Positions 2,154 to 45,804 of a DNA stretch of 46,013 nt are shown here, piece after piece. The notes beneath the pieces were generated by a model. It was not told the origin of the DNA, did no database searches, and saw nothing but the letters and a program-made list of their open reading frames with translations. The stretch comes from Candidatus Jorgensenbacteria bacterium CG03_land_8_20_14_0_80_38_39 (GTDB lineage: Bacteria; Patescibacteriota; Minisyncoccia; UBA6257; GWB1-50-10): contig PEUU01000025.1 in the NCBI GenBank assembly GCA_002781185.1, positions 1 to 46,013 of the forward strand. Direction: 5' to 3'. Within the stretch, counting starts at the first letter, position 1; each line of letters starts with the position of its first letter. A program made the translations under genes and the position numbers.

Positions 2154-2570
2154 TTAACTGAATAAAACTTTGAAGGCTTTATTTAAAATGTTTTTTTGGT
2201 TTTGATAAATCAACATCCTTAAAGCTTCCCGATGGGAAAACCAGCCAAAACCTTGATGTTCAAAAGAAATCCTGATAATCGGATTTTTTGTTTCAGCCAA
2301 AAAATAAACTACAATTTTAAAAATCTTTCTTTTTTGCTGAGTAAAAATATAACGGTCGTAAACTTTAAATTTTTTGCTGAAAGTTAAATCGCCGGGACGC
2401 AAGCCGGTTTCTTCTTTAATTTCCCTTAAGGCGGCGGTATAAGAATCTTCTTCTTTTTCCAGCTTTCCCTTGGGGAAATTCCAATAACGGCCGCCGTGAT
2501 AAAGCAATAAAAATTTCGGCCCTTCTTTGGTTTTTCTGAAAATTATGATGCCGGCTGAAATTTCACGCAT
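2154..2570 (-). CDS. Nudix hydrolase
   Basis: Nudix box GKLEKEEDSYTAALREIKEETGL (GX5EX7REUXEEXGU). The start is taken at ATG 2570 (MREIS...); the track's TTG at 2588 falls inside an inverted-repeat arm. Confidence 0.8.
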   Translation of the reverse strand: MREISAGIIIFRKTKEGPKFLLLYHGGRYWNFPKGKLEKEEDSYTAALREIKEETGLRPGDLTFSKKFKVYDRYIFTQQKRKIFKIVVYFLAETKNPIIRISFEHQGFGWFSHREALRMLIYQNQKNILNKAFKVLFS

Positions 2571-2580
2571 AAATAAATCA

Positions 2581-2604
2581 CTAATCAATCTCTAATATTA
2601 TCTC
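2581..2604. repeat. Left arm of the inverted repeat bracketing the GxxExxY gene
   Basis: ctaatcaatctctaatattatctc; its partner at 3017..3040 reads ctaatcaatctctaattttatctc as a reverse complement (23 of 24 positions match). Confidence 0.8.
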
Positions 2605-2617
2605 TAATAATCTCGAA

Positions 2618-2995
2618 TTAGTCGCCTTTTAAAATTCTTTTAAATTGCAGATTATTTCTATTGAAATTTGCCAAAATGCCTAAAGAAGTATTAGTGGCCT
2701 TCAAATAAGCCAAAACTTGTTTCACATCACGAATATAAAATTTATTAGCCACCTTAATTTCTAATATAATTTTATCTTCTATTAAAAAATCAAGAAAATA
2801 TCTTCCTATAGAAATGCCCTTAAATGAAAGTGGAATACTTATCTGTTCTTTAAATTTTATATCTCTATTTTTAAATTCTTGAGAAACGGCTCGCTGATAA
2901 TATTTTTCTTGATAACCACCACCTAAGTTATTGTAAACATCAAAAAGAATACCGATTATCTTATAACTTAATTCTTTTTCAACTAATTTAGCCAT
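2618..2995 (-). CDS. GxxExxY family protein (PD-(D/E)XK-like; the family often encoded in 23S rRNA intervening sequences)
   Basis: 125 aa with GGGYQEKYYQRAV (the GxxExxY motif) and the family's overall pattern (LDFLIEDKIILEIK). Confidence 0.75.
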   Translation of the reverse strand: MAKLVEKELSYKIIGILFDVYNNLGGGYQEKYYQRAVSQEFKNRDIKFKEQISIPLSFKGISIGRYFLDFLIEDKIILEIKVANKFYIRDVKQVLAYLKATNTSLGILANFNRNNLQFKRILKGD

Positions 2996-3016
2996 ACTAA
3001 TTATTAGAGAACATTC

Positions 3017-3040
3017 GAGATAAAATTAGAGATTGATTAG
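3017..3040. repeat. Right arm of the inverted repeat bracketing the GxxExxY gene
   Basis: gagataaaattagagattgattag is the reverse complement of the 2581..2604 arm with one mismatch. Confidence 0.8.
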
Positions 3041-3043
3041 GGA

Positions 3044-4813
3044 TTATTTTAACATTTTTAACATCTTCTCCAATGGCCAGTAGTTAATAATGTCTTTTTT
3101 TTCAGCCCAACCCCGCCGGGCCTGACTAATGCCATATTCCAAATAAGGTAAATGGGTAACAGAATGAGCGTCAGAATCAATGGCAATTTTTACTCCGGCT
3201 TTTATAGCCAAATGGATATGGTCGTCTTTTAAATCCAGACGATTGGGGTAAGCGTTAACTTCCAAAACCGTTTTGGTTTTTTGGGCGGTTTTAATAATTT
3301 CTTCAATATCAAATTCGTAAGCTTCTCTTTTTTGAATGATCCGGCCCGAAGGATGAAATAAAATATCAACATTAGGATTGCTTATGGCTTTTTTAATTCT
3401 TTCGGTCTGCTCTTTTTTGGAAAGATTAAAATAAGAATGAATAGAAACTCCCACGACATCTAATTTGGCCAAAACTTCGTCCTTAATATCCAAACTGCCG
3501 TCTTTTAAGATATCGCATTCTGTGCCTTTTAGAATCTTAAATGGTTCGACTCGGCTCACCACGGGTTTTGAATTTTGTTCGTCAATTGACGAATTGAATT
3601 TTAAATTAAGCCGGTCAATTTCTTTTATTTGCTCCAGAAGTCTTTTTTCATCAAGACCATTGGCCATGGCCAGTCTTTTGGTGTGGTCGGTAATAGCAAT
3701 ATACTCCAAACCTTGCGCCATAGCTGCTTTAGCCATTTCTTCAATGGAATTTACGCCATCGGTCCAATTGGTTTGAACCTGCAAGTCCCCTAAAATTTCT
3801 CCGTAATCAATAAGTTTGGGAAGCTGATGGCGTCGAGCCAGTTCAATTTCTCCTTTGTTTTCCCGCATTTCCGGTTCAATGTAATCCAAGCCTAATTTTT
3901 CATAAATTTCTTCCTCGGTTTCACCGGCAATTTGTTTTTTTCCTTTAAACAAACCGTACTCATTCAGCTTGTAACCTTTCTTAAGGGCGATTTCCCTTAA
4001 AGCGACATTGTGGTCTTTAGAACCGGTGAAATAACTCAGAGCCGCGCCGTAAGATTTTTTTTCTACCACTCTCAAGTCAACATCCAAACCATTGTTTAAC
4101 TGAACCGCTGATTTAGTTAAACCCTTGGCATAAACTCTGGCGACTTCGGGCAAGGAAACAAAATAATCCATTACTGGCCGGGAATCGTTGGAAATAACTA
4201 AAATGTCCGCGTCACCAATAGTTTCTTTCCAGCGCCTGACCGAACCAGCCGCCACTAATCTTTCAACTTCTTTCAATTTTTTCAAACGCTCTTCCAAACT
4301 GCGAATCAATGACCTGGTAAACCCCAAAATAAAACGGCCGCTGGATTTTTTCAAAAACTTGATGCCTTCTAAAATGTTTTCTTCGGTTTTTTCCCCAAAG
4401 CCTTCAATTTTTCTGATTTTTCCGGTTTGGGCGGCTTTTTCCAAATCTTGAATATTTTTAATGCCCAGGGCTTCGTAAAGTTTTTTTAGGCTCTTTGGAC
4501 CTAAACCTTCAATTCTTCTTAGGGAAATTAAATCTAGGGGCGTTTGTTTTTTTAACTTTTCATAATACTTCAAATGGCCGGTTTTAATGAGCTCTTCAAT
4601 TTTTTCGGCAATGGAAACGCCGATTCCCGGAATGTCTTCAATAGCTTTTAAACCGCCATTTTTATAAATACTTTCCACTTCCTCTTCTAATTCTTCAATA
4701 ACCTCAGCAGCTTTTTCGTAAGCTCGAGGTTTAAAAGCCACGCTTTGCATTTCTAAATATTCCCCTATTTCTTTTAAAATTTCGGCAATTTGATGATTGC
4801 TAATCATACTCAC
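3044..4813 (-). CDS. polX: Family X DNA polymerase with C-terminal PHP domain (PolX)
   Basis: 589 aa. N-terminal HhH motifs (IPGIGVSIAEKI, IEGLGPKSLKKL), a Pol-beta-like core (GSVRRWKETIGDADILV), and a PHP domain (DLQVQTNWTDG...ITDHT...HSYF...DSDAHS). Confidence 0.85.
   Translation of the reverse strand: MSMISNHQIAEILKEIGEYLEMQSVAFKPRAYEKAAEVIEELEEEVESIYKNGGLKAIEDIPGIGVSIAEKIEELIKTGHLKYYEKLKKQTPLDLISLRRIEGLGPKSLKKLYEALGIKNIQDLEKAAQTGKIRKIEGFGEKTEENILEGIKFLKKSSGRFILGFTRSLIRSLEERLKKLKEVERLVAAGSVRRWKETIGDADILVISNDSRPVMDYFVSLPEVARVYAKGLTKSAVQLNNGLDVDLRVVEKKSYGAALSYFTGSKDHNVALREIALKKGYKLNEYGLFKGKKQIAGETEEEIYEKLGLDYIEPEMRENKGEIELARRHQLPKLIDYGEILGDLQVQTNWTDGVNSIEEMAKAAMAQGLEYIAITDHTKRLAMANGLDEKRLLEQIKEIDRLNLKFNSSIDEQNSKPVVSRVEPFKILKGTECDILKDGSLDIKDEVLAKLDVVGVSIHSYFNLSKKEQTERIKKAISNPNVDILFHPSGRIIQKREAYEFDIEEIIKTAQKTKTVLEVNAYPNRLDLKDDHIHLAIKAGVKIAIDSDAHSVTHLPYLEYGISQARRGWAEKKDIINYWPLEKMLKMLK
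3541..3593. repeat. Copy A of an in-frame GC-rich palindromic element, inside polX
   Basis: atggttcgacTcGgctcacca...gggttttgaatttt...aattgacgaa shares three blocks with 15949..16013. It encodes ...SSIDEQNSKPVVSRVEPF... on the minus strand. Confidence 0.7.
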
Positions 4814-15332: not shown

Positions 15333-15749
15333 TTAAATGTCAAGGGTCAATATGACTTCAAAAATACCGCGCTTATTCTGCTCAATTTCGGCTTCATGAT
15401 AAGTAACCGCCTTTATATCTTCGTCAAAATAGTCAATAGGAAAACCGAAAATTTGGGTTTCTAAACTTTTTGGCGAAAATTTCAAAAACTTTATCCGGGG
15501 ATAAATTTTTCTGTTTATTTCGCTCCGGCTCAAAACCTCGTTCAAGAAATTCACTAAAAGAATGTTAATGTCTGGCGCCTCAATAACAATCTTTTCGTAT
15601 TCCCCGGGCCGCTTCTTGAATTTTTCATATTCCGGATAAAGGATAGCGGCTAACGCCAAAGCGGCACTTTGAAAAACTTCTTCTTCTGTATGACCCTGCA
15701 CTCTTATCCGCATATCGGCCGTATGCTCTAAAATTTTAAAAGGTATCAT
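15333..15749 (-). CDS. Archease (RtcB activator)
   Basis: 138 aa. The N-terminal FKILEHTADMRIRVQG motif and C-terminal VKAVTYHE are typical of archease. Clustered with rtcB. Confidence 0.85.
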   Translation of the reverse strand: MIPFKILEHTADMRIRVQGHTEEEVFQSAALALAAILYPEYEKFKKRPGEYEKIVIEAPDINILLVNFLNEVLSRSEINRKIYPRIKFLKFSPKSLETQIFGFPIDYFDEDIKAVTYHEAEIEQNKRGIFEVILTLDI

Positions 15750-17071
15750 AAATTAATCTCTTGAAGCGCTTTTTCCAAAGCCCGGCGTTCGCTCCAAGGA
15801 ATTCTTTGACCGCGAGCCAAGTGAATCCAGGGCTCGCTGCCCTTGCCGGTAACAATAACAGCATCGCCTTTTTTCGCCAGACTAACGGCCTTTTTAATAG
15901 CTTCTTGGCGGTCAATGATTTTATAAATATTGCGAATTTTGAATTTTGATGGTTCGACCCTGCTCACCATCAACCCTGAGCGTTGTCGAAGGGTTGAATT
16001 TTGAATTGACGAAAATCCCAATTCGATTTCGTCTAATATAATTTCTGGATTTTCGTCATAAGGGTCCTCGTTTGTTAAAATAATGGTTTGACAATACTCA
16101 GCGGCAATTTCTCCCATTACCGGCCGTTTCCACTTGTCCCGGCCGCCGCCAGCTGAACCTAAAACGCAAATTATTGAATGAGAAGAATGCTTCGCCTTAA
16201 TCATTGACTTTAGAGCTTGATAAACTTTTTCTAAAGAATCAGGGGTATGGGCATAATCAATTACGGCTAAAAATGGCGATTTTTGAATAAATTCAAAACG
16301 GCCGGGAAGACCGGAAAAATTATTTAAAGTATCTAAAATTATTTGCCCATCGATATTTTGAGAACGAGCAAAACTTACCGCCGCCGCGGCGTTTTCCAAA
16401 TTAAAATCCGCCAATAACCAATCGCCGATTCTTTGTCTGCCTTCCTCGGAATTTAAATTATAACGGCCCCCCAACTCTTCTTGAATAAACCTTCCCCGGC
16501 TAAAAAACACAATTTCTTTAGCCGGGATTGACCTTGTCGCCTCAACAAAGAAATGCTGATTACTATCATCTTCATTGATAAAAAAATATTTTTTCGGTTT
16601 TTTGGAATTGGCCAAAGAGCGGAAAAATCGGATTTTGGCTTCCCGGTATTTTTCAAAAGAACCGTGAGCTTCAATGTGTTCGGGCATTAAATTCAAAAAA
16701 ACTGCCGCGTCCCAATCAATGAATTTATGACGAAATTGGATGACTCCCTGAGAAGTAACTTCTATTAAAGCATACTGGCAACCGGCCTTAACCGCTCGCC
16801 GGAGAAATTTTTGGATAAAAAATCGGCCAGGCATAGTATTATTAGTCAAATTCAGCTCTTTTTTGTCATTTATTTGAAAATAAACCGAGGAACTCATAGC
16901 TATTTTCTTATTAGCCCGCCTTAAAATTTCCGCCATTAGCTCCAAAACCGTTGATTTACCTTTGGTGCCGGTAACGCCGACAACAAATAAACGCCGACTG
17001 GGAAAACCGAAAAAAATATTGCCAAAAAACGCCATTACCCAATGATAAATTGAATGAACTAGAGAAACCAT
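15746..17071 (-). CDS. murE: Mur ligase family protein, MurE-like
   Basis: P-loop GVTGTKGKSTV, DYAHTPDSL, NEDPYDENP and TGKGSE motifs in MurE order. It lacks a long N-terminal domain and carries the in-frame element near the C-terminus. Confidence 0.65.
   Translation of the reverse strand: MVSLVHSIYHWVMAFFGNIFFGFPSRRLFVVGVTGTKGKSTVLELMAEILRRANKKIAMSSSVYFQINDKKELNLTNNTMPGRFFIQKFLRRAVKAGCQYALIEVTSQGVIQFRHKFIDWDAAVFLNLMPEHIEAHGSFEKYREAKIRFFRSLANSKKPKKYFFINEDDSNQHFFVEATRSIPAKEIVFFSRGRFIQEELGGRYNLNSEEGRQRIGDWLLADFNLENAAAAVSFARSQNIDGQIILDTLNNFSGLPGRFEFIQKSPFLAVIDYAHTPDSLEKVYQALKSMIKAKHSSHSIICVLGSAGGGRDKWKRPVMGEIAAEYCQTIILTNEDPYDENPEIILDEIELGFSSIQNSTLRQRSGLMVSRVEPSKFKIRNIYKIIDRQEAIKKAVSLAKKGDAVIVTGKGSEPWIHLARGQRIPWSERRALEKALQEINL
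15949..16013. repeat. Copy B of the in-frame GC-rich palindromic element, inside the murE-like gene
   Basis: atggttcgacCcTgctcacca tcaaccctgagcgttgtcgaa gggttgaatttt g aattgacgaa. Internal hairpin TTCGAC-ccT-GCTCA...TGAGC-gtt-GTCGAA. It encodes ...SSIQNSTLRQRSGLMVSRVEPS... on the minus strand. Confidence 0.7.
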
Positions 17072-38874: not shown

Positions 38875-39563
38875 TGACTCAGATAAAAAGTTAAACTTGT
38901 TTCCTGAGGCGGAATTAAAGGACTGGTTTTGTTTTCCACCCCGGCGCCGATTCTAAAGCTATTATCAGTATTAGCCCAATCTTTGCTTACAGTTAAAATC
39001 ACCGGATTTTGGTTGTTTAATTCTTTTTGAAAATGAAGATTAATTTTCCAGAAGAAATTAAAATCCTGAAAATTGTTAGCATTGAAAAAATAAGGAACAG
39101 AACGAAGAACTATTTGTTCCCCTTCTTTAAAAGTTTTGATTGGCGAAGGGTAATCAATAATTACTTGAGGTTCAGCAATATTAACGCTGACGCTGTTGCC
39201 GTAATTGTTTTGTTCCAGTTGAATCTCCGTTCTCACTAAATAAGGGCCGAGCCAGTTTACCGGGACATTAATTAAAATTTCTTTTAAGCCAATTCCCCGA
39301 TTAAAATATTTATTGTTAACATACCAAAGAAAGTCCGCCTTGCTGATGTCAATAATTTTATTATCTTTTATTAATTCGGCGCTTACTAAAATTGGAGTCA
39401 TCGGCGTGGCTAGGGCTTTTAAGGGGTAATCAGCGGGGAAATAATTATTGGCTTGCCAGGTTAAAATGACTTGAGTTGAAGGTTCGGAAGTTTGGGCTTT
39501 GGCTTGAACCAACAATCCCAGAGAAATAATGATTATGATAAAAGTTAAAATTTTCTTTTTCAT
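38871..39563 (-). CDS. Secreted hypothetical protein in the T4SS-like operon
   Basis: 230 aa. Signal peptide MKKKILTFIIIIISLGLLVQAKA. 4-nt overlaps on both sides. Confidence 0.5.
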   Translation of the reverse strand: MKKKILTFIIIIISLGLLVQAKAQTSEPSTQVILTWQANNYFPADYPLKALATPMTPILVSAELIKDNKIIDISKADFLWYVNNKYFNRGIGLKEILINVPVNWLGPYLVRTEIQLEQNNYGNSVSVNIAEPQVIIDYPSPIKTFKEGEQIVLRSVPYFFNANNFQDFNFFWKINLHFQKELNNQNPVILTVSKDWANTDNSFRIGAGVENKTSPLIPPQETSLTFYLSQ

Positions 39564-41335
39564 TTTTGTTGTTCTTCCATGCCTTGTTCTTCTAAACCTT
39601 TGGCGGCTAAAATTTGTTCGGGATTAGTGGTAATAATCTGGTCCTCGGTATAAGAAGGAATGATTTTGATGGCCGCTCTTTTTAAACCGGCAAAAAATAA
39701 ACCTTCGCCAATGCCAGCTTCCAGAAGAAGAGCTTTTTCACCTTCGGTTAAATCAAAAGTTTTAGCCACAATATCAATATTGGCCGGCGCTTGCTTAAGC
39801 AATAATTGAATGGTGGAATTGGTGATAATCGGTCGGCCGTATTCGGAAGTTAAGAAATCGTTGACGTCTTGGGTAATGGTTGTTACCCCCAAATAATATT
39901 TTCGGCAGCGTTTAACCAGACCAAAGAGGAAAGCGGCGCTGTCTTTATATTTCATCATCCACCAAGCTTCATCAATTATCAAAATCCGGCGTTTTAGTTT
40001 TGAGCGAATGAGATTCCAAATGAAGTTTAAAATAACATACATTGCAATCGGTCTGAGTTCGCTTTCCAAATCCCGAATGGAAAAAACTATCAAGCGATTT
40101 TTAATGTCAACATTGGTTGGTTGATTGGTAAAACCGGCATAAGAGCCGTGAGTGAATTTATCCAAGCGTTGGGCTAAGGAACGGCCGCCCTCGGTATTTT
40201 GAAGAACAGTTTGAAAATCTTCAAAAAGCGGCGGTTGAAGTTCGGTTGAGCCGAAATTTTCCGGCGTGATATCGCGGGAAGCATAAACGTCGTTAAGAGC
40301 CCGGTCTAAAAGCGCATCTTCTTCGGGCGTGATTTCTCCAAGCATTAATTCAATTAAGCCGGTTAAGTTTAAAATGTGGGATTTAAAAACATCGGCCGGC
40401 TCTTCATTTTCGGGAATAATGGGAATGTCAAAGGGATTAACGTGTTTTTCCGAAGTGAGGGAAATTTTAAACACTGAACCGCCAACCGCGTCCGCCAAAG
40501 TTTGATATTCATTTTCCGGGTCAATAACAATAACATCGGTTCCAATCATCATTGAACGGATAATTTCTAATTTGGTGGCATAAGATTTACCGCTGCCGGC
40601 CTTGGCGAAAACAACCGAGTTCGCGTTCTCCAAAGAAAAGCGGTCAAAAATAATCAAACTGTTATTATGAAGATTTAAACCGTAAAGAACTCCTTTGTCC
40701 GAACTTAATTCCGGCGAAACAAAGGGAAATAATGATGAAGCTGGCAAAGTATTAAGGGGAGTGTAAATGCCTAATTTGTCTTGACCAAAAGGGAAAACTG
40801 AATTTAAACCTTCAATTTGGCGGAAAAGAGCCGCTTTAAGATAAACCAATTTACTTTCCAACCGAGAAGTTAAGGTGTTTTCTAATTTTGATAATTCTTC
40901 TAAAGTGGTGCCGTAAATAGTGATATAAACTCCGACCTCAAACATTTTTTCTCGGGCTTGCTGAAGCGCGTCTCTAAGATTTTCTATGTCTTCGTGGGCG
41001 GTTTCCAGAAGCGGGTCGCGCACCATTCCTTTTTCTCCTTTTTCTCCCATTTCCGCTTCAATTTCCGCCACTCGTTTTCTTAAGCTTTTAAGGGCTAAAG
41101 CCACATCCAAAGGATGCATAAAAATACTAATATCCATCATTTCGGTCAGCTCAATAATTGAAGAAAACCAGCCGCTTGAAAGGTAGCGGGGATAAGTGAA
41201 GATAAAAAAGGATTTAGCGAAATAATCGCCCAATTTCAAATAGTTGGATTCTATTTTTAAACCGGCCGGCGCTATTACTTGAACCGTGTCAGCCGCCGAA
41301 GGCTTATAAGCTTGAGGCAATTTTATTTTAACCAT
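39560..41335 (-). CDS. VirB4/TraC-like T4SS ATPase (C-terminal part of a split VirB4)
   Basis: 591 aa. Walker A FAKAGSGKSYATK, Walker B RILIIDEAWWMM. The upstream segment LKLGDYFAKSFFIFTYPRYLSSGW is typical of the VirB4 middle region. Confidence 0.8.
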   Translation of the reverse strand: MVKIKLPQAYKPSAADTVQVIAPAGLKIESNYLKLGDYFAKSFFIFTYPRYLSSGWFSSIIELTEMMDISIFMHPLDVALALKSLRKRVAEIEAEMGEKGEKGMVRDPLLETAHEDIENLRDALQQAREKMFEVGVYITIYGTTLEELSKLENTLTSRLESKLVYLKAALFRQIEGLNSVFPFGQDKLGIYTPLNTLPASSLFPFVSPELSSDKGVLYGLNLHNNSLIIFDRFSLENANSVVFAKAGSGKSYATKLEIIRSMMIGTDVIVIDPENEYQTLADAVGGSVFKISLTSEKHVNPFDIPIIPENEEPADVFKSHILNLTGLIELMLGEITPEEDALLDRALNDVYASRDITPENFGSTELQPPLFEDFQTVLQNTEGGRSLAQRLDKFTHGSYAGFTNQPTNVDIKNRLIVFSIRDLESELRPIAMYVILNFIWNLIRSKLKRRILIIDEAWWMMKYKDSAAFLFGLVKRCRKYYLGVTTITQDVNDFLTSEYGRPIITNSTIQLLLKQAPANIDIVAKTFDLTEGEKALLLEAGIGEGLFFAGLKRAAIKIIPSYTEDQIITTNPEQILAAKGLEEQGMEEQQK

Positions 41336-42117: not shown

Positions 42118-42597
42118 TCAATAATTGACTTTTTTGACAATTTTCTTTTCGCCGGTTTTTTCCCGAATTAAACCGTAGCGAGATGGCGTTTTTTGAACCG
42201 GAGGATGTTTCGGGGCGGTCATAATTCTTTGAGCCGCGGCTTTTAGTTTTTCTTGAAAACTCAATTGTTTCCGGTTTTTTTCTAAAAAGTCTTCGGGGAT
42301 TTCTAAGGTGGTTTGAGGAATTTCTCTTCCCCAAAGATAAATTTTCGGCCGCCAAAAATACTTAATGGCCGAGATTAAAATAAGAGGAAAACTTTGGCCG
42401 TTAATTTTTAAAAAAGCAAAAGCCAAAGCCAGAACTCCGACAATTAAAGTGATAATGAACCAAACAAAAAAATTAAAAATAGAAAAAGCCAAGAAGCTGA
42501 TGCCGGCGGCCGCGCCGATGTAAAAAAATTGGACCAAAGTTAAAGGGCCGACGATTTTCGGTTTGGTTTCAATAAATTGAGGAACTTGGAATTCCAT
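42118..42597 (-). CDS. PrgI-family (VirB3-like) small membrane protein
   Basis: 159 aa. N-terminus FQVPQFIETKPKIVGPLTLVQFFYIG followed by two TM helices, matching the PrgI-family signature and its position upstream of VirB4. Confidence 0.55.
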   Translation of the reverse strand: MEFQVPQFIETKPKIVGPLTLVQFFYIGAAAGISFLAFSIFNFFVWFIITLIVGVLALAFAFLKINGQSFPLILISAIKYFWRPKIYLWGREIPQTTLEIPEDFLEKNRKQLSFQEKLKAAAQRIMTAPKHPPVQKTPSRYGLIREKTGEKKIVKKVNY

Positions 42598-43724: not shown

Positions 43725-45740
43725 TTAAGGAGTGTAAGAAATAGTGTTTCGCCAGTGCGGCCTTTGGGAAGCGGATTCATAATTAGACCAGGCCCTATTT
43801 TTATCCGGCTCGGATTTTATGGCGTCCAGCTTGGACTTTAAGCTTTTGTCAGTAGTTTGTTTTTGCTTAATAAGATTTGCGAGCTTCGCTTGAGCGGCTT
43901 GCTTGGCTGCGCCAGCGGGAGCTGCTTGGGCTAATGAGTTTTGGTCGGCGATATCTTGTTTTAATGTGTCTATAGTTTTTTGGTATTTTTTAATGTCCTC
44001 AATTTCCATAAATCCTTTGTTTAGATCATTATCGCCCAGGGTTGTAATCCAGGCAGCAGCAACAGCATCTTTCTTTTCTTTAGGAGCAAAATCTAATTGG
44101 CTAATATGATTTAGGGAAAGATTATTAGCGATTTCCGGCTTTCCCAAACTTTCCTTGTTGAGGTCAGAAACATCTGGAACCCTTTTCATTACTTGTCCAA
44201 TGTCTTTATTGAAAGCTTGGGCATATTGCGGCTGATGTTTTAAGAACTCGTCGCCGCTGTTGGTTTGTTTTAAGGCCTTCAGGATTCTGTCTTGTGTTGA
44301 TTTCTTCAATTTGTCCCAGGCGCCTTTTTTCTCTGCTATAGCCAAACCCAAGCCGCTTAATTCTTGAGGTCTAGCTGTTGGCATTTGGCGATCAGCAGTC
44401 GCCACCAAATCTTCGGAAGTTCGGGACTTGGCTTTTTTGTATTCCTCTTCCGTTCCTTTGGCGAGTTTTTCTTTAGCTCGGCTAGAAACGCCGGAAATAC
44501 CAGTGAAAGCCCGACCAACAACAGGAATTGTTCTTAATTCCTTGCCAAATATTTTTTTGCCTCCGGCTCTTTCTAGAGCAGTTTTACCTTCTTCATCAGT
44601 TCTGGCGGTTAAAAGCCTGTCGCGACCACTGGCTGCTTTTCTGCCGGCCCAGGCCTTGGTCTTACTGCCCATTGCTTTACCTTGGGTTCCCGCCCATTTA
44701 ACAGTCGTGTCGGCAAAACCTATGCCCATACTTTGAGCCGCGATTAAACCTCCGACTAAAATTGCCAAAATTAAAAACATTTGAGCGCCTTGAGTAAAAA
44801 TAGTTTCCAAAGGTCCGGCAAGGCCCAAATACATATCTGATTGTATAATCGTAATGGGATGGTCTTTTAAAACTTGAGCGCTTCTGACAGCTAAATAAAC
44901 GAAAAAAGAGGCCGCCGGCGCAAAAAATACCCATTTGATAAAACTATTCCACCATTTTTTTGTTTGTTCGCTCCATTGGGGCACAATCCAAAAAAGCCAG
45001 GTAATAGGCGAAATAACTAAAAGAAAAGAAAGCTCAAAAAATCTAATGAAAAACAAAATAGCCAGAATAAAAAGAACTATTGCTCCGACGACAGTAAAAA
45101 GAAAAGTAAATAATATGCTGGCGATGCCAATGAAAAAAGCCTCACCAACATTTTCAAAATCAGGCGGCGGTGATGGCGTCGTCGGGTTAGTTGAAGCCAT
45201 TAAAAGTTTTTGAATATCAAAAGCTCCGGCTAAAGTGACGGCTAAATTTTTGGGGCTGATACTGGCGGCGTTGAGGAAAAATTGGGTGAAGACATTGGCA
45301 AAATCAATAAAAACTTTGCCAATAAGCAAGCTGAAATTAACCAAAACCGCGGCGACAATTAATTTTGACAAAAGGTCTTTGGCTCCGTATTTTTGAATTC
45401 TTAAAATTGTGGCAAAAGCAATAATAATAATGACTAAAACAAAACCTAAGTTCGCAATATCCCTAACAATGCCCCAGCCAATGCTTACCACGGGATTAGC
45501 CGAACTGACAATGTGGAGATTTATATCAAAGGCTATATTGACAAACATACTAGCCAAACTAAAAAGCAGTCCGCCTATCCAGCCAATGACAGAATTAACA
45601 ACGGTAAAGAAAAGGTTTAAAGCATTGAATAAAATTTTTGTTTCACCAAACAGTGCTCCTGCTGGCAGAGGAATAGCAACAAAAATAAAAATTAAAAAAA
45701 CAGCGGCAAGCCAAAAGTTTTTAAAAAAATTCTTTTTCAT
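43725..45740 (-). CDS. VirB6/TrbL-like polytopic membrane protein with a long hydrophilic C-terminal domain
   Basis: A signal/TM segment plus about 6-7 TM helices over the first ~340 aa, then ~330 hydrophilic residues. First gene of the operon. The start is taken at ATG 45740 (MKKNFFKNFW), not the track's TTG at 45764. Confidence 0.45.
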   Translation of the reverse strand: MKKNFFKNFWLAAVFLIFIFVAIPLPAGALFGETKILFNALNLFFTVVNSVIGWIGGLLFSLASMFVNIAFDINLHIVSSANPVVSIGWGIVRDIANLGFVLVIIIIAFATILRIQKYGAKDLLSKLIVAAVLVNFSLLIGKVFIDFANVFTQFFLNAASISPKNLAVTLAGAFDIQKLLMASTNPTTPSPPPDFENVGEAFFIGIASILFTFLFTVVGAIVLFILAILFFIRFFELSFLLVISPITWLFWIVPQWSEQTKKWWNSFIKWVFFAPAASFFVYLAVRSAQVLKDHPITIIQSDMYLGLAGPLETIFTQGAQMFLILAILVGGLIAAQSMGIGFADTTVKWAGTQGKAMGSKTKAWAGRKAASGRDRLLTARTDEEGKTALERAGGKKIFGKELRTIPVVGRAFTGISGVSSRAKEKLAKGTEEEYKKAKSRTSEDLVATADRQMPTARPQELSGLGLAIAEKKGAWDKLKKSTQDRILKALKQTNSGDEFLKHQPQYAQAFNKDIGQVMKRVPDVSDLNKESLGKPEIANNLSLNHISQLDFAPKEKKDAVAAAWITTLGDNDLNKGFMEIEDIKKYQKTIDTLKQDIADQNSLAQAAPAGAAKQAAQAKLANLIKQKQTTDKSLKSKLDAIKSEPDKNRAWSNYESASQRPHWRNTISYTP

Positions 45741-45804
45741 AATTTGGCAGTTAAATCTTGGCAATTTCGTAACAAGAAAATCTCGCCTTTTAAAAGTTTA
45801 ATTT

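What the first reader, a model, noticed from the sequence alone, without database searches (positions are those of the whole stretch)
3541..3593. Short GC-rich palindromic element inserted in-frame in two unrelated genes (copy in polX)
The + strand 3541..3593 shares three ordered blocks with 15949..16013 in the MurE-like gene: atggttcgacNcNgctcacca, gggtt(tt)gaatttt and aattgacgaa. The two copies differ by 12 nt net, so both keep the reading frame.

Both copies lie on the coding (minus) strand and add a similar peptide:
- PolX: FNSSIDEQNSKPVVSRVEPFKI
- Mur: FSSIQNSTLRQRSGLMVSRVEPSKFKI

In PolX the insert sits in the PHP domain between EIDRLN and ILKGTECDIL. As I remember PolX homologues, only a few residues separate these motifs. 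This behaviour (a small palindromic repeat colonising ORFs in-frame) is known from Rickettsia palindromic elements. I am not aware of it being described for CPR-type genomes.
Basis: partly seen in the sequence, partly recalled or inferred. Interest (0 to 1): 0.75.

Follow-up and report, generated by a model that had tools for sequence, protein, structure and literature searches.

The report
Tiny hairpin repeats inserted inside genes
Two essential-type genes of a Candidatus Jorgensenbacteria genome each carry a 24- or 48-base hairpin repeat that is read through as extra protein loop, and the repeat belongs to a very widespread, apparently undescribed family of miniature insertion elements that mostly sit inside genes.

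Summary
GGTTCGACNNNGCTCACCA occurs exactly twice in 46 kb, against 0.05 expected.

- **Lineage-specific inserts.** About 110 PolX relatives and 119 Mur-ligase relatives lack the extra residues. A relative's DNA shows the PolX insert is exactly 24 nt (one box). The Mur insert is 48 nt: two inverted boxes, bounded by TTGA on both sides.
- **Surface loops.** In AlphaFold models both inserts are low-confidence coils between a helix and a strand.
- **Conserved hairpin loop.** The shared core TTCGAC-N3-GCTCA is a 14-nt loop closed by a covarying stem. It occurs in many phyla, not only CPR.
- **Mostly inside genes.** I collected 71 canonical copies of the 48-nt subfamily from metagenomes.
  - 66 are exactly 48 nt and 67 follow TTGAT.
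  - 43 lie deep inside long ORFs of diverse housekeeping genes.
  - All four stop-free frames are used, and none breaks an ORF.
- **A third gene.** A 97%-identical sister copy sits in frame in a ValRS gene of a probably related genome.

Blocks 2 and 3 are target tract and a separate palindrome module, not part of the element. The family is also not CPR-specific.

The mobilising enzyme is unknown. I found no match in Rfam and no description in the searchable literature. I class it as a new variant of a known kind.

The parts
3542..3565 (+). 24-nt single-box unit TGGTTCGACTCGGCTCACCACGGG inserted in polX. The gene is on the - strand and reads it as PVVSRVEP, residues 417-424.
   Evidence: The empty site in relative P0014 reads CAA AAT TCA AAA|TTT AGG. 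The window has the same flanks with exactly 24 nt between them. It is absent from about 110 relatives. The one-box profile gives E 2.7e-6.
3545..3558 (+).
3566..3577 (+). Heptamer-type tract TTTTGAATTTTG (encodes QNSK). It is the ancestral target sequence, not part of the insert.
   Evidence: Present in relatives' DNA and protein, as QNSKF.
3578..3593 (+). 16-nt perfect palindrome TTCGTCAATTGACGAA. It makes up most of NSSIDE (residues 407-412; its outer two bases lie in the F406 and Q413 codons). It is a lineage-specific gain of 12 nt and a second repeated module.
   Evidence: Relatives have 2 residues (KN or KK) here. Window 3571-3602 is 94% identical over 32 nt to a stretch next to the ValRS copy in L206/L307.
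15950..15997 (+). 48-nt two-box unit inserted in the MurE-like gene. It is a 44-nt core plus TTGA. The gene is on the - strand and reads it as STLRQRSGLMVSRVEP, residues 359-374.
   Evidence: It is absent from 119 relatives. Removing it restores colinearity with their GFSQIPNSKFQISKNYWKILDR. The two-box profile scores 61.5 bits, E 1.8e-18. The identical locus appears in another sample as L266.
15946..15949 (+). TTGA immediately 5' of the unit. The same 4 nt end the unit at 15994-15997. This is either a target-site duplication or a TTGA-specific target.
   Evidence: The insertion point has a 4-nt rotational ambiguity. The left flank is TTGAT in 67 of 71 canonical copies, and the right flank is TTGAN in 62 of 71.
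15953..15966 (+). Core 1 (TTCGACCCTGCTCA), a loop closed by TTGATGG/CCATCAA.
15977..15990 (-). Core 2 (TTCGACAACGCTCA on the - strand), a loop closed by TCAACCC/GGGTTGA. It is the inverted copy of core 1.
   Evidence: The stem position shows Y:R covariation, 39 T-A and 12 C-G with 1 exception.
15939..16005 (+). 67-nt stretch (unit plus heptamer flanks) that is 97% identical to the in-frame copy in a ValRS gene (L206/L307).
3044..4813 (-). Host gene 1: PolX (family X polymerase plus PHP domain). The ORF is intact.
   Evidence: 3AU2 matches at E 1e-137. AlphaFold model has mean pLDDT 89.
15746..17071 (-). Host gene 2: MurE-like Mur ligase. The ORF is intact.
   Evidence: 4BUB matches at E 3e-46. 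AlphaFold model has mean pLDDT 88.7.

Best explanation
These are copies of a non-autonomous miniature insertion element that spreads at the DNA level.

**Anatomy.** Its building block is a short hairpin: a conserved 14-nt loop, TTCGAC-N3-GCTCA, closed by a stem whose sequence is free to vary. One block makes a 24-nt unit (polX). Two inverted blocks sharing a middle strand make a 48-nt unit (murE).

**Insertion.** The 48-nt unit integrates directly 3' of TTGA and itself ends in TTGA. It often lands in short tandem heptamer-type tracts. Both window targets were the same string, CAAAATTCAAAATT.

**Why it survives in genes.** The units are 24 and 48 nt, so they never shift the frame. Four of the six frames of the 48-nt unit have no stop codon. 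An insertion in a surface loop is therefore simply translated as 8 or 16 extra residues and tolerated. Copies that break genes are lost.

**What is shown.**
- The insertion and its exact boundaries.
- Absence from relatives.
- Placement in loops.
- The family-wide unit length and the TTGA flank.
- Use of all four open frames.
- A near-identical sister copy in a third gene.

**What is inferred.**
- Mobility in trans.
- Recognition of the folded hairpin loop by an unknown enzyme.
- Integration through the TTGA that pairs with the element's internal TCAA.
For: - **Lineage-specific inserts with exact boundaries:**
- **Loop placement.** pLDDT is below 50 at PolX 412-420 and Mur 365-369, each between a helix and a strand.
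- **Family breadth.** They hold 74 additional cores against about 0.6 expected.
- **Conserved loop, covarying stem.**
  - 50 of 75 unbiased cores have a stem of at least 3 bp, against 7.8 expected.
  - 71% of cells are paired against 45% in shuffles, and 0 of 500 shuffles reach that.
  - The covariation score is 0.644 against 0.209; slid controls give 0.10-0.20.
- **The 48-nt subfamily.** At least 119 metagenome loci.
  - 66 of 71 units are 48 nt and 67 of 71 have TTGAT on the left.
  - 43 of 71 lie in long ORFs, and all four open frames are used.
  - None of the 71 interrupts an ORF. All five units that are not 48 nt lie outside the deep-ORF set.
- **Host genes are real and diverse.** They include radical SAM enzymes, GluRS, LpxB, PolA, IspG, QueA, ValRS, EPSP synthase, SecDF and Obg. 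Genome loci add ABC-F, transketolase and UvrD.
- **Amplification.** Tandem 48-nt arrays occur, and protein P0241 has three in-frame copies.
- **Sister copy.** A 67-nt stretch in ValRS is 97% identical, including the otherwise rare N3 triplets CCT and GTT.
- **Target context.** Flanking tandem repeats occur at 13.5% of copies against 0.5% of control positions.
- **Non-autonomous.** No recurrent neighbouring gene was found.
Against: - No transposase or other candidate enzyme was found in the window's small ORFs or near 239 loci.
- I found no filled-versus-empty polymorphism within the species. All variants at 99-100% identity carry the insert.
- The element's orientation shows no bias relative to GC skew or local coding strand, 32 against 34. 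That argues against an IS200/IS605-like mechanism using the lagging-strand template.
- As single RNA strands the two window copies do not fold significantly better than shuffles (z -0.5 to -1.8).
- The PolX unit has neither a TTGA flank nor an internal complement of its flank. It may therefore move or arise differently from the 48-nt unit.
Confidence: 0.8

Rival explanations
1. It is a classical cut-and-paste MITE moved by a DDE transposase. On this reading the 44-nt core has imperfect 9-nt terminal inverted repeats (TGGTTCGAC and the reverse complement of its 3' end, TCCTTCGAC) and makes a 4-bp TTGA target-site duplication.
For: - The two boxes are inverted at the ends of the core, and TTGA lies on both sides.
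- There is no strand bias.
- Tandem copies share a single TTGAT.
Against: - At 44 nt it would be smaller than any MITE listed in the 2024 review (PMC10969869).
- The flank is almost always the same TTGA.
- In other subfamilies the flank changes together with the internal complement: TTAAT/ATTAA, TCAT/ATGA, CTGGT/ACCAG. A passive duplication does not predict that.
- Single-box 24-nt units and single hairpins with variable stems have no inverted ends.
- No parent insertion sequence with these ends was seen.
Confidence: 0.2
2. It spreads by recombination rather than transposition. Ectopic gene conversion or microhomology-templated repair between heptamer-repeat tracts would copy the hairpin, together with some flank, from one locus to another.
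For: - Both window targets are the same ancestral string, CAAAATTCAAAATT.
- Identity between the Mur and ValRS copies runs beyond the 48-nt unit into the flanks, 67 nt at 97%.
- PolX's derived TTCGTCAATT equals Mur's ancestral flank. The palindrome module also accompanies the ValRS copy.
- Flanking tandem repeats are enriched 27-fold.
Against: - Most of the 71 canonical copies have unrelated flanks beyond TTGA(T).
- The unit length is sharply fixed at 48 nt.
- The same unit occurs in contigs of very different G+C content (0.33-0.64) and, judging by host genes such as LpxB and cytochrome b, in non-CPR hosts. Intragenomic conversion cannot explain that.
Confidence: 0.15
3. It is a selected functional module rather than selfish DNA. 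It could be an mRNA or ssDNA hairpin bound by a conserved factor for regulation, or a useful peptide motif.
For: - The loop sequence is conserved across phyla, with stem covariation of the kind seen in functional RNAs.
- Some boxes abut start codons.
Against: - All four open frames and both orientations are used inside ORFs, so no single peptide is selected.
- Hosts and positions are unrelated.
- There is no Rfam match.
- Folding of the window copies is not significant.
- Tandem amplification and nesting are typical of selfish repeats.
Confidence: 0.08
4. The insert is removed or skipped during expression. That could be ribosomal bypassing as for mitochondrial 'byp' elements or T4 gene 60, or excision from the RNA. 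The identical TCA codons flanking the Mur unit would serve as take-off and landing sites.
For: The Mur unit is flanked by identical TCA codons, and a hairpin is present.
Against: - None of the 71 copies sits in a stop-containing frame or breaks a frame. All 43 deep in-ORF copies are stop-free and 48 nt. That pattern fits insertions that must be translated, not ones that are skipped.
Confidence: 0.03

Closest known systems
Rickettsia palindromic elements (RPE; Ogata et al. 2000, as summarised in PMC10969869)
   Same: A small palindromic repeat inserted in frame into many unrelated housekeeping genes. It adds a peptide at sites compatible with the protein fold, and no transposase is associated.
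   Different: - RPEs are about 150 bp and fall into ten families. Each is reported to encode a conserved peptide, and they are confined to Rickettsia.
- These units are 24 or 48 nt and show no RPE-like consensus.
- They are read in four different frames.
- They have a conserved loop with a variable stem.
- They occur across many phyla.
REP / REPIN elements and intragenic REPs (GTAG- or CGTC-tagged stem-loops; PMC3733652, PMC3116915)
   Same: Stem-loops of 20-40 nt, often in inverted pairs, suspected to be mobilised in trans. Some lie inside genes, including aminoacyl-tRNA synthetase and repair genes.
   Different: - REPs have a conserved stem plus a terminal GTAG or CGTC tag, and are mainly extragenic and downstream of genes.
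- Here the loop is conserved and the stem varies.
- There is no terminal tag.
- Most copies of the 48-nt subfamily are intragenic.
- No RAYT (REP-associated tyrosine transposase) gene was seen.
Small dispersed repeats (SDR) of Nostoc (Elhai et al. 2008, Genome Res 18:1484). Recalled from memory; the paper could not be opened.
   Same: Mobile units of 21-27 nt, found nested in one another and inside tandem heptamer repeats. The 24-nt unit, nesting, heptamer context and hits in Nostoc contigs (L099, L107) all match that description.
   Different: I could not compare sequences. SDRs were described only for cyanobacteria, and not as predominantly in-frame intragenic elements.
IS200/IS605-derived miniature elements (PATE-type) and their HUH Y1 transposases. 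From general knowledge.
   Same: Hairpin-based elements that insert 3' of a fixed tetra- or pentanucleotide. ISDra2 uses TTGAT. The target is recognised by pairing with an internal guide, and no terminal inverted repeats are required.
   Different: - Those elements are usually longer than 100 bp, with two different end hairpins.
- They show strong bias for the lagging-strand template. No strand bias was seen here.
- No TnpA gene was found.
Mitochondrial 'byp' elements and T4 gene 60 bypassing. From general knowledge.
   Same: Short, GC-rich hairpin insertions (27-55 nt) inside coding sequence, flanked by matching codons.
   Different: Byps are skipped by the ribosome and often contain stops. 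Here every intragenic copy is open and a multiple of three nucleotides long.

Membership tests
Rickettsia palindromic elements | In-frame insertion into unrelated protein-coding genes at sites compatible with the fold | tested here: met
   PolX, MurE-like and ValRS, plus 43 of 71 metagenome copies.
Rickettsia palindromic elements | Element of about 100-150 bp belonging to one of the RPE consensus families, each encoding one conserved peptide (PMC10969869) | tested here: not met
   Units are 24 and 48 nt. Four different reading frames are used.
Rickettsia palindromic elements | CGTC tetranucleotide at one end (PMC3733652) | tested here: not met
   The 53-column consensus of the unit has no terminal CGTC or GACG. 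Only the separate PolX palindrome TTCGTCAATTGACGAA contains CGTC.
REP / REPIN | GTAG (or CGTC) tag at one end of a stem-loop with a conserved stem | tested here: not met
   Stems vary and the loop is conserved. GTAG occurs only inside the loop of box 2, when N3 is GTA.
REP / REPIN | Predominantly extragenic location | tested here: not met
   43 of 71 copies lie deep inside ORFs, and many of the rest are near ORF ends.
REP / REPIN | Cognate RAYT gene in the genome | not testable with these tools
   Only 46 kb of the genome is available. The ten small (125-176 aa) window ORFs scanned against Pfam include none, and no gene family recurs near the 239 loci.
MITE (DDE-mobilised) | Terminal inverted repeats | tested here: inconclusive
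   The 44-nt core ends in inverted boxes, 9 nt with 2 mismatches. The 24-nt unit has none.
MITE (DDE-mobilised) | Target-site duplication | tested here: inconclusive
   TTGA lies on both sides, with only one TTGA in the reconstructed empty site. It is equally compatible with TTGA-specific insertion of a unit that ends in TTGA. The PolX unit has a duplication of at most 1 nt.
MITE (DDE-mobilised) | Parent insertion sequence sharing the termini | not tested
   No collection-wide search for such an element was possible. None lies adjacent in the 239 loci.
IS200/IS605-type miniature element | Insertion 3' of a fixed short target that pairs with an internal guide | tested here: met
   TTGAT lies 5' of the unit in 67 of 71 copies, and an internal ATCAA is complementary to it. 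Other subfamilies change flank and centre together. This is sequence evidence only.
IS200/IS605-type miniature element | Strand-specific insertion (lagging-strand template) | tested here: not met
   32 against 34 relative to GC skew and to the local coding strand. GC skew over short loci is a noisy proxy.
Cyanobacterial SDR elements | 21-27-nt units, nested, within tandem heptamers, with presence/absence between relatives | tested here: met
   - 24-nt unit and 24-nt tandem arrays in L004, L062 and L109.
- Nesting in L005, L008, L012, L027, L063, L076 and L092.
- Tandem-repeat context at 13.5% against 0.5%.
- The defining features themselves are recalled from memory.
Cyanobacterial SDR elements | Sequence identity to one of the eight published SDR families | not testable with these tools
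   The paper (PMC2527708) is not held. No held paper contains the box sequence.

The most novel reading that the evidence does not exclude
The TTCGAC-N3-GCTCA hairpin defines an undescribed superfamily found across bacteria. At 24 and 48 nt its units may be the smallest mobile elements known. Unit lengths that are multiples of three, together with mostly stop-free frames, would be an adaptation for living inside coding sequence in gene-dense genomes. The units would be moved by a still unidentified, widely distributed enzyme that recognises the loop. They would be a general source of loop insertions in housekeeping proteins of CPR, Omnitrophota and other uncultivated lineages.
Probability: 0.4. 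Interest if true: 0.8.

Novelty: new variant of a known kind. Interest (0 to 1): 0.65.

Why it matters
- **Annotation.** It gives a concrete, testable origin for the short lineage-specific loop insertions that litter proteins of CPR and other uncultivated bacteria. Alignments, protein-family models and structure predictions should mask these segments.
- **Generality.** Protein-coding palindromes, known as a curiosity of Rickettsia, would be a widespread phenomenon.
- **An unknown enzyme.** A sharply defined substrate is now available: a 14-nt loop, a free stem and a TTGA target. It can be used to look for the enzyme that moves the element.
- **Minimal size.** A 24- or 48-nt unit would sit at the lower size limit for mobile DNA.
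- **Practical use.** The units mark recent insertion events and could serve for strain typing in metagenomes.

Tried and rejected
- **Stable RNA structure.** Folding of the two window copies on both strands gave z-scores of only -0.5 to -1.8. The window copies alone do not argue for structure.
- **Rfam.** Gathering and permissive scans found nothing but one tRNA and noise.
- **tRNA 3'-end or T-arm mimic.** GGTTCGAnnCC...ACCA looks like one, but the box is 19 nt where a real T-arm plus acceptor end needs about 25, and the T-stem partners are not conserved. This rests on reasoning.
- **Hammerhead-like core (CUGAnGA...GAAA).** The positions do not fit.
- **Long hairpin pairing box 1 with box 2.** The N3 positions vary independently: 16-37 gives C-G 21, T-G 11, C-A 8, T-A 5. 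It is not supported. The supported structure is one stem per loop.
- **IS200/IS605-like strand bias.** Not seen.
- **Associated gene.** All-against-all clustering of ORFs in 120 genome loci and 119 metagenome loci gave only common housekeeping families. The window's small ORFs include no transposase.
- **Peptide searches.**
  - A chimeric 41-aa probe found nothing in the word-indexed database, so that search was wasted.
  - The exhaustive HMMER search with 36 aa gave one hit, P0241.
- **Literature.** Searches by box sequence, by translated peptides and by keywords found no description. Elhai 2008 could not be opened.
- **Viral contigs.** The 66 hits are near the number expected by chance for the collection's size, which is my own estimate. 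Several are a conserved phage gene, but some are genuine two-box elements, such as L150 and L183.
- **Same genome or not.** I could not establish whether the ValRS contig belongs to the window's genome. The only support is tetranucleotide similarity (r 0.981, best of 37 loci) and the shared rare N3 signature.
Full report
**Observation**

The + strand carries GGTTCGACTCGGCTCACCA at 3543-3561 and GGTTCGACCCTGCTCACCA at 15951-15969. These are the only matches in 46 kb even when three mismatches are allowed. The expectation is 0.05, and none of 100 dinucleotide shuffles reaches two.

The 14-nt core TTCGACNNNGCTCA occurs three times. The third copy is inverted at 15977-15990, against 0.34 expected. 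Profile HMMs built from copies in unrelated organisms find these sites and nothing else in the window.

The host ORFs are a PolX at 3044-4813 (-) and a MurE-like ligase at 15746-17071 (-). PolX matches 3AU2 at E 1e-137, and the ligase matches 4BUB at E 3e-46. One near-identical PolX (99% identity, P0010) is named Candidatus Jorgensenbacteria bacterium CG_4_8_14_3_um_filter_38_10.

**Are the inserts lineage-specific, and where exactly are they?**

- **PolX, protein level.** About 110 relatives at 64-72% identity read LN(L/S)KFK(K/N)QN(S/I)KF(K/R)ILKG. The window reads LNLKF[NSSIDE]QNSK[PVVSRVEP]FKILKG. T. thermophilus PolX has about six residues here, against 22 in the window.
- **PolX, DNA level.** The DNA of relative P0014 gives the empty site. 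It reads CAA AAT TCA AAA|TTT AGG, and the window has the same flanks with exactly 24 nt between them: CCCGTGGTGAGCCGAGTCGAACCA, window 3542-3565. A second gain of 12 nt upstream creates a perfect 16-nt palindrome, TTCGTCAATTGACGAA, at 3578-3593.
- **Mur ligase.** The 119 relatives lack 16 residues. Removing them gives GFSSIQNSKFKIRNIYKIIDR, which is colinear with their GFSQIPNSKFQISKNYWKILDR. T. maritima MurE has 7 residues where the window has 30.
- **Mur insert anatomy.** The insert is 48 nt (15950-15997). It is a 44-nt core of two inverted boxes plus TTGA, and another TTGA lies directly 5' of it. This leaves a 4-nt ambiguity in the insertion point.
- **Shared target.** Both genes were hit in the same ancestral string, CAAAATTCAAAATT, which encodes QNSKF.

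AlphaFold2 models put both inserts in low-confidence coil:

| Protein | Mean pLDDT | Coil | pLDDT < 50 | Flanked by |
|---|---|---|---|---|
| PolX | 89 | 409-424 | 412-420 | helix 388-408, strand 425-434 |
| MurE-like | 88.7 | 362-373 | 365-369 | helix 342-361, strand 381-384 |

**The family**

The 19-nt box is not lineage-specific. They come from Bacteroidota, Omnitrophota, Patescibacteria (including another Jorgensenbacteria), Ignavibacteria, Planctomycetota, Chloroflexota, Acidobacteriota, Cyanobacteria and others.

By my own estimate, chance alone would give a few hundred matches in a collection of 596 billion bases. The hits are nevertheless clearly non-random:

- T precedes the box in 114 of 122 cases.
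- The same 0.86 Mb holds 74 further TTCGAC-N2-3-GCTCA cores, against about 0.6 in shuffles.
- The bases flanking those unselected cores pair with each other. Fifty of 75 have a stem of at least 3 bp, against 7.8 expected, and the stem sequences differ widely.

On 38 unbiased cores a formal count gives the following:

| Measure | Observed | Shuffled | Shuffles reaching observed |
|---|---|---|---|
| Cells paired | 71% | 45% | 0 of 500 |
| Covariation score | 0.644 | 0.209 | 0 of 500 |

Slid controls give covariation scores of 0.10-0.20. The building block is therefore a hairpin with a conserved 14-nt loop and a free stem.

Further features of the family:

- Boxes are often nested in the centre of other boxes.
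- Boxes also occur in tandem arrays of period 24.
- 47 of 130 boxes lie in long open frames.
- Pfam confirms real host genes: ABC-F, transketolase of a Paceibacterota genome, UvrD, FAD-binding oxidoreductase, FecR and a 4Fe-4S (ferredoxin-type) domain protein.

**The 48-nt subfamily**

I scanned metagenomes with the box1-box2 junction of the Mur copy, GCTCACCATCAAYCCTGAGC.

Properties of the 71 canonical copies:

- 66 have a unit of exactly 48 nt.
- The left flank is TTGAT in 67, and the right flank is TTGA followed by any base in 62.
- One stem position covaries: 39 T-A, 12 C-G and 1 exception.
- 43 lie inside long ORFs, with at least 30 codons on each side.
- No copy interrupts an otherwise intact ORF.
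- The five units of 47 or 49 nt all lie outside the deep-ORF set.

All four stop-free frames are used:

| Peptide read | Copies |
|---|---|
| INPSTxLRIDGExSRTIK | 21 |
| STLRLRSGLMVSxVEPSK (the window's frame) | 9 |
| IDGSTSLTINPExSRRID | 11 |
| LMVRLRSPSxLSEVEGLT | 2 |

Host ORFs include radical SAM enzymes, GluRS, LpxB, DNA polymerase A, IspG, QueA, ValRS, EPSP synthase, cytochrome b, SecDF, Obg, FemAB and YbeY. Some of these are not CPR-type genes.

Tandem 48-nt arrays occur, and one EPSP-synthase-like protein (P0241) has three in-frame copies. Short tandem repeats of 6-9 nt flank 13.5% of copies, against 0.5% of control positions. The window's copies also sit in (GAATTTT)n-type tracts.

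**A third gene**

Contigs L206 and L307 carry a ValRS gene with YPLVKN[LTLRQRSGLMVSRVEPSKFNPSTDEQN]YIVVATTRPET. T. thermophilus ValRS has four residues at that point.

- The DNA is 97% identical over 67 nt to window 15939-16005. This includes the N3 triplets CCT and GTT, which no other of the 52 distinct copies shares.
- Next to it lies a 32-nt stretch that is 94% identical to the PolX palindrome module, window 3571-3602.
- L307 has the highest tetranucleotide correlation with the window among 37 loci, r 0.981. It probably comes from the same or a closely related genome, but this is not proven.
- Near-identical copies in unrelated genes are the strongest sign of recent copying.

**How it works**

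*Shown:*
- DNA-level insertion with exact boundaries.
- Unit lengths of 24 and 48 nt.
- A TTGA(T) flank matched by an internal ATCAA.
- A conserved loop with a covarying stem.
- Read-through in whichever frame is open.
- Placement in loops.

*Inferred:*
- The units are non-autonomous. They would be moved in trans by an enzyme that recognises the folded loop and joins the unit next to TTGA.
- Multiples of three and stop-free frames let them persist in gene-dense genomes.

*Unresolved:* the enzyme.
- An IS200/IS605-like single-strand mechanism fits the fixed target and its internal complement. It predicts strand bias, which was not seen (32 against 34).
- A DDE-type MITE fits the inverted ends and TTGA on both sides. 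It does not fit the single-box units or the co-variation of flank and centre between subfamilies.
- Recombination between heptamer tracts may contribute. The Mur/ValRS identity reaches into the flanks, and PolX's derived TTCGTCAATT equals Mur's ancestral flank.
- Ribosomal bypassing or RNA excision is unlikely, because no copy sits in a stop-containing frame.

**Comparison with known families**

- **RPEs.** The behaviour is that of Rickettsia palindromic elements. Those are about 150 bp, and 44 insertions were reported in unrelated R. conorii genes, nearly half of them within ORFs as translational fusions (PMC10969869). It also resembles the intragenic REPs of proteobacteria (PMC3733652).
- **Membership fails on defining features.** The size is wrong, there is no terminal GTAG or CGTC tag, the loop rather than the stem is conserved, and most copies are intragenic.
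- **SDRs.** From memory, the closest match in anatomy is the 21-27-nt small dispersed repeats of Nostoc (Elhai et al. 2008). Those too are nested and sit in heptamer repeats. The paper could not be read here.
- **Databases and literature.** Rfam has no match. No held paper contains the box or its peptides. A keyword search for palindromic in-frame repeats in the Candidate Phyla Radiation found nothing relevant.

**Verdict**

I class it as a new variant of a known kind: protein-coding miniature palindromic insertion elements. Interest is 0.65.

Noticed in passing
window 2570-3051 (gene 2618-2995, - strand): A PD-(D/E)XK nuclease gene (Pfam PDDEXK_3, E 1e-33) is flanked by inverted repeats of about 45-75 nt (arms 2570-2644 and 2977-3051, 73% complementary). 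It sits between the NUDIX gene and polX. In relative L122 those two genes overlap with nothing between them; in L121 they lie about 225 nt apart with no gene called between them. It looks like a small inserted gene cassette. It has no sequence link to the box element.
   Followed up: partly
L206:2-2083 (-) and L307 (metagenome contigs): A ValRS gene carries an in-frame two-box copy 97% identical to the window's Mur copy, with the PolX-type palindrome module beside it. The same ValRS has a second heptamer-like extra segment (ISNSQFLISKQIQNSS) where T. thermophilus ValRS has a gap.
   Followed up: partly
PolX relatives P0020, P0043, P0061, P0074, P0100; Mur relatives P0161, P0172, P0173, P0180, P0185, P0193, P0224: Other CPR lineages have different short extra peptides at exactly the same two loops, for example SASGG, FAKASEDK, RQGRGSPEAA, SSFGGQSS and APRGQSPFAG. 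These loops look like repeated landing sites for several kinds of small repeat.
   Followed up: no
genome loci L014, L024, L025, L050, L067 and others: In about 5% of occurrences the box ends exactly at the start codon of a real gene on the opposite strand (...GTCGAACC|ATG). Examples are a GxGxxG oxidoreductase and a SucC-like protein. The element's conserved terminal AT supplies or abuts the ATG.
   Followed up: partly
P0241; loci L216, L259, L287, L308, L004, L062, L109: There are tandem in-frame arrays of the units. P0241, an EPSP-synthase-like protein, has three 16-residue copies. Bacteroidales ABC-F (L004) and other genes hold 24-nt arrays.
   Followed up: partly
viral contigs L150/L183, L132, L135, L153, L155, L164, L166, L172, L176: Genuine box elements, some flanked by AT-rich perfect palindromes or short tandem repeats, occur on contigs classified as viral. 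Phages are a possible vehicle between hosts. The total hit count is near chance and includes a conserved phage gene.
   Followed up: partly
window 15746-17071: The MurE-like ligase is 441 aa and aligns only from residue 89 of T. maritima MurE. It appears to lack the N-terminal domain of canonical MurE, as do its CPR relatives of 400-450 aa.
   Followed up: no
window 42118-42597 (- strand) and neighbouring large ORFs (39560-41335, 43725-45764): A small ORF matches the PrgI family (E 4e-7) and lies among large ORFs. This may be a conjugation or type IV secretion-like cluster. The neighbours were not annotated.
   Followed up: no
window 15746-17071 versus cluster representative P0121: The population variant P0121 reads QNLTLRQ where the window reads QNSTLRQ. 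By inference from the protein difference, the TTGA at the unit's end would be TTAA in that variant, as it is in the ValRS copy.
   Followed up: no
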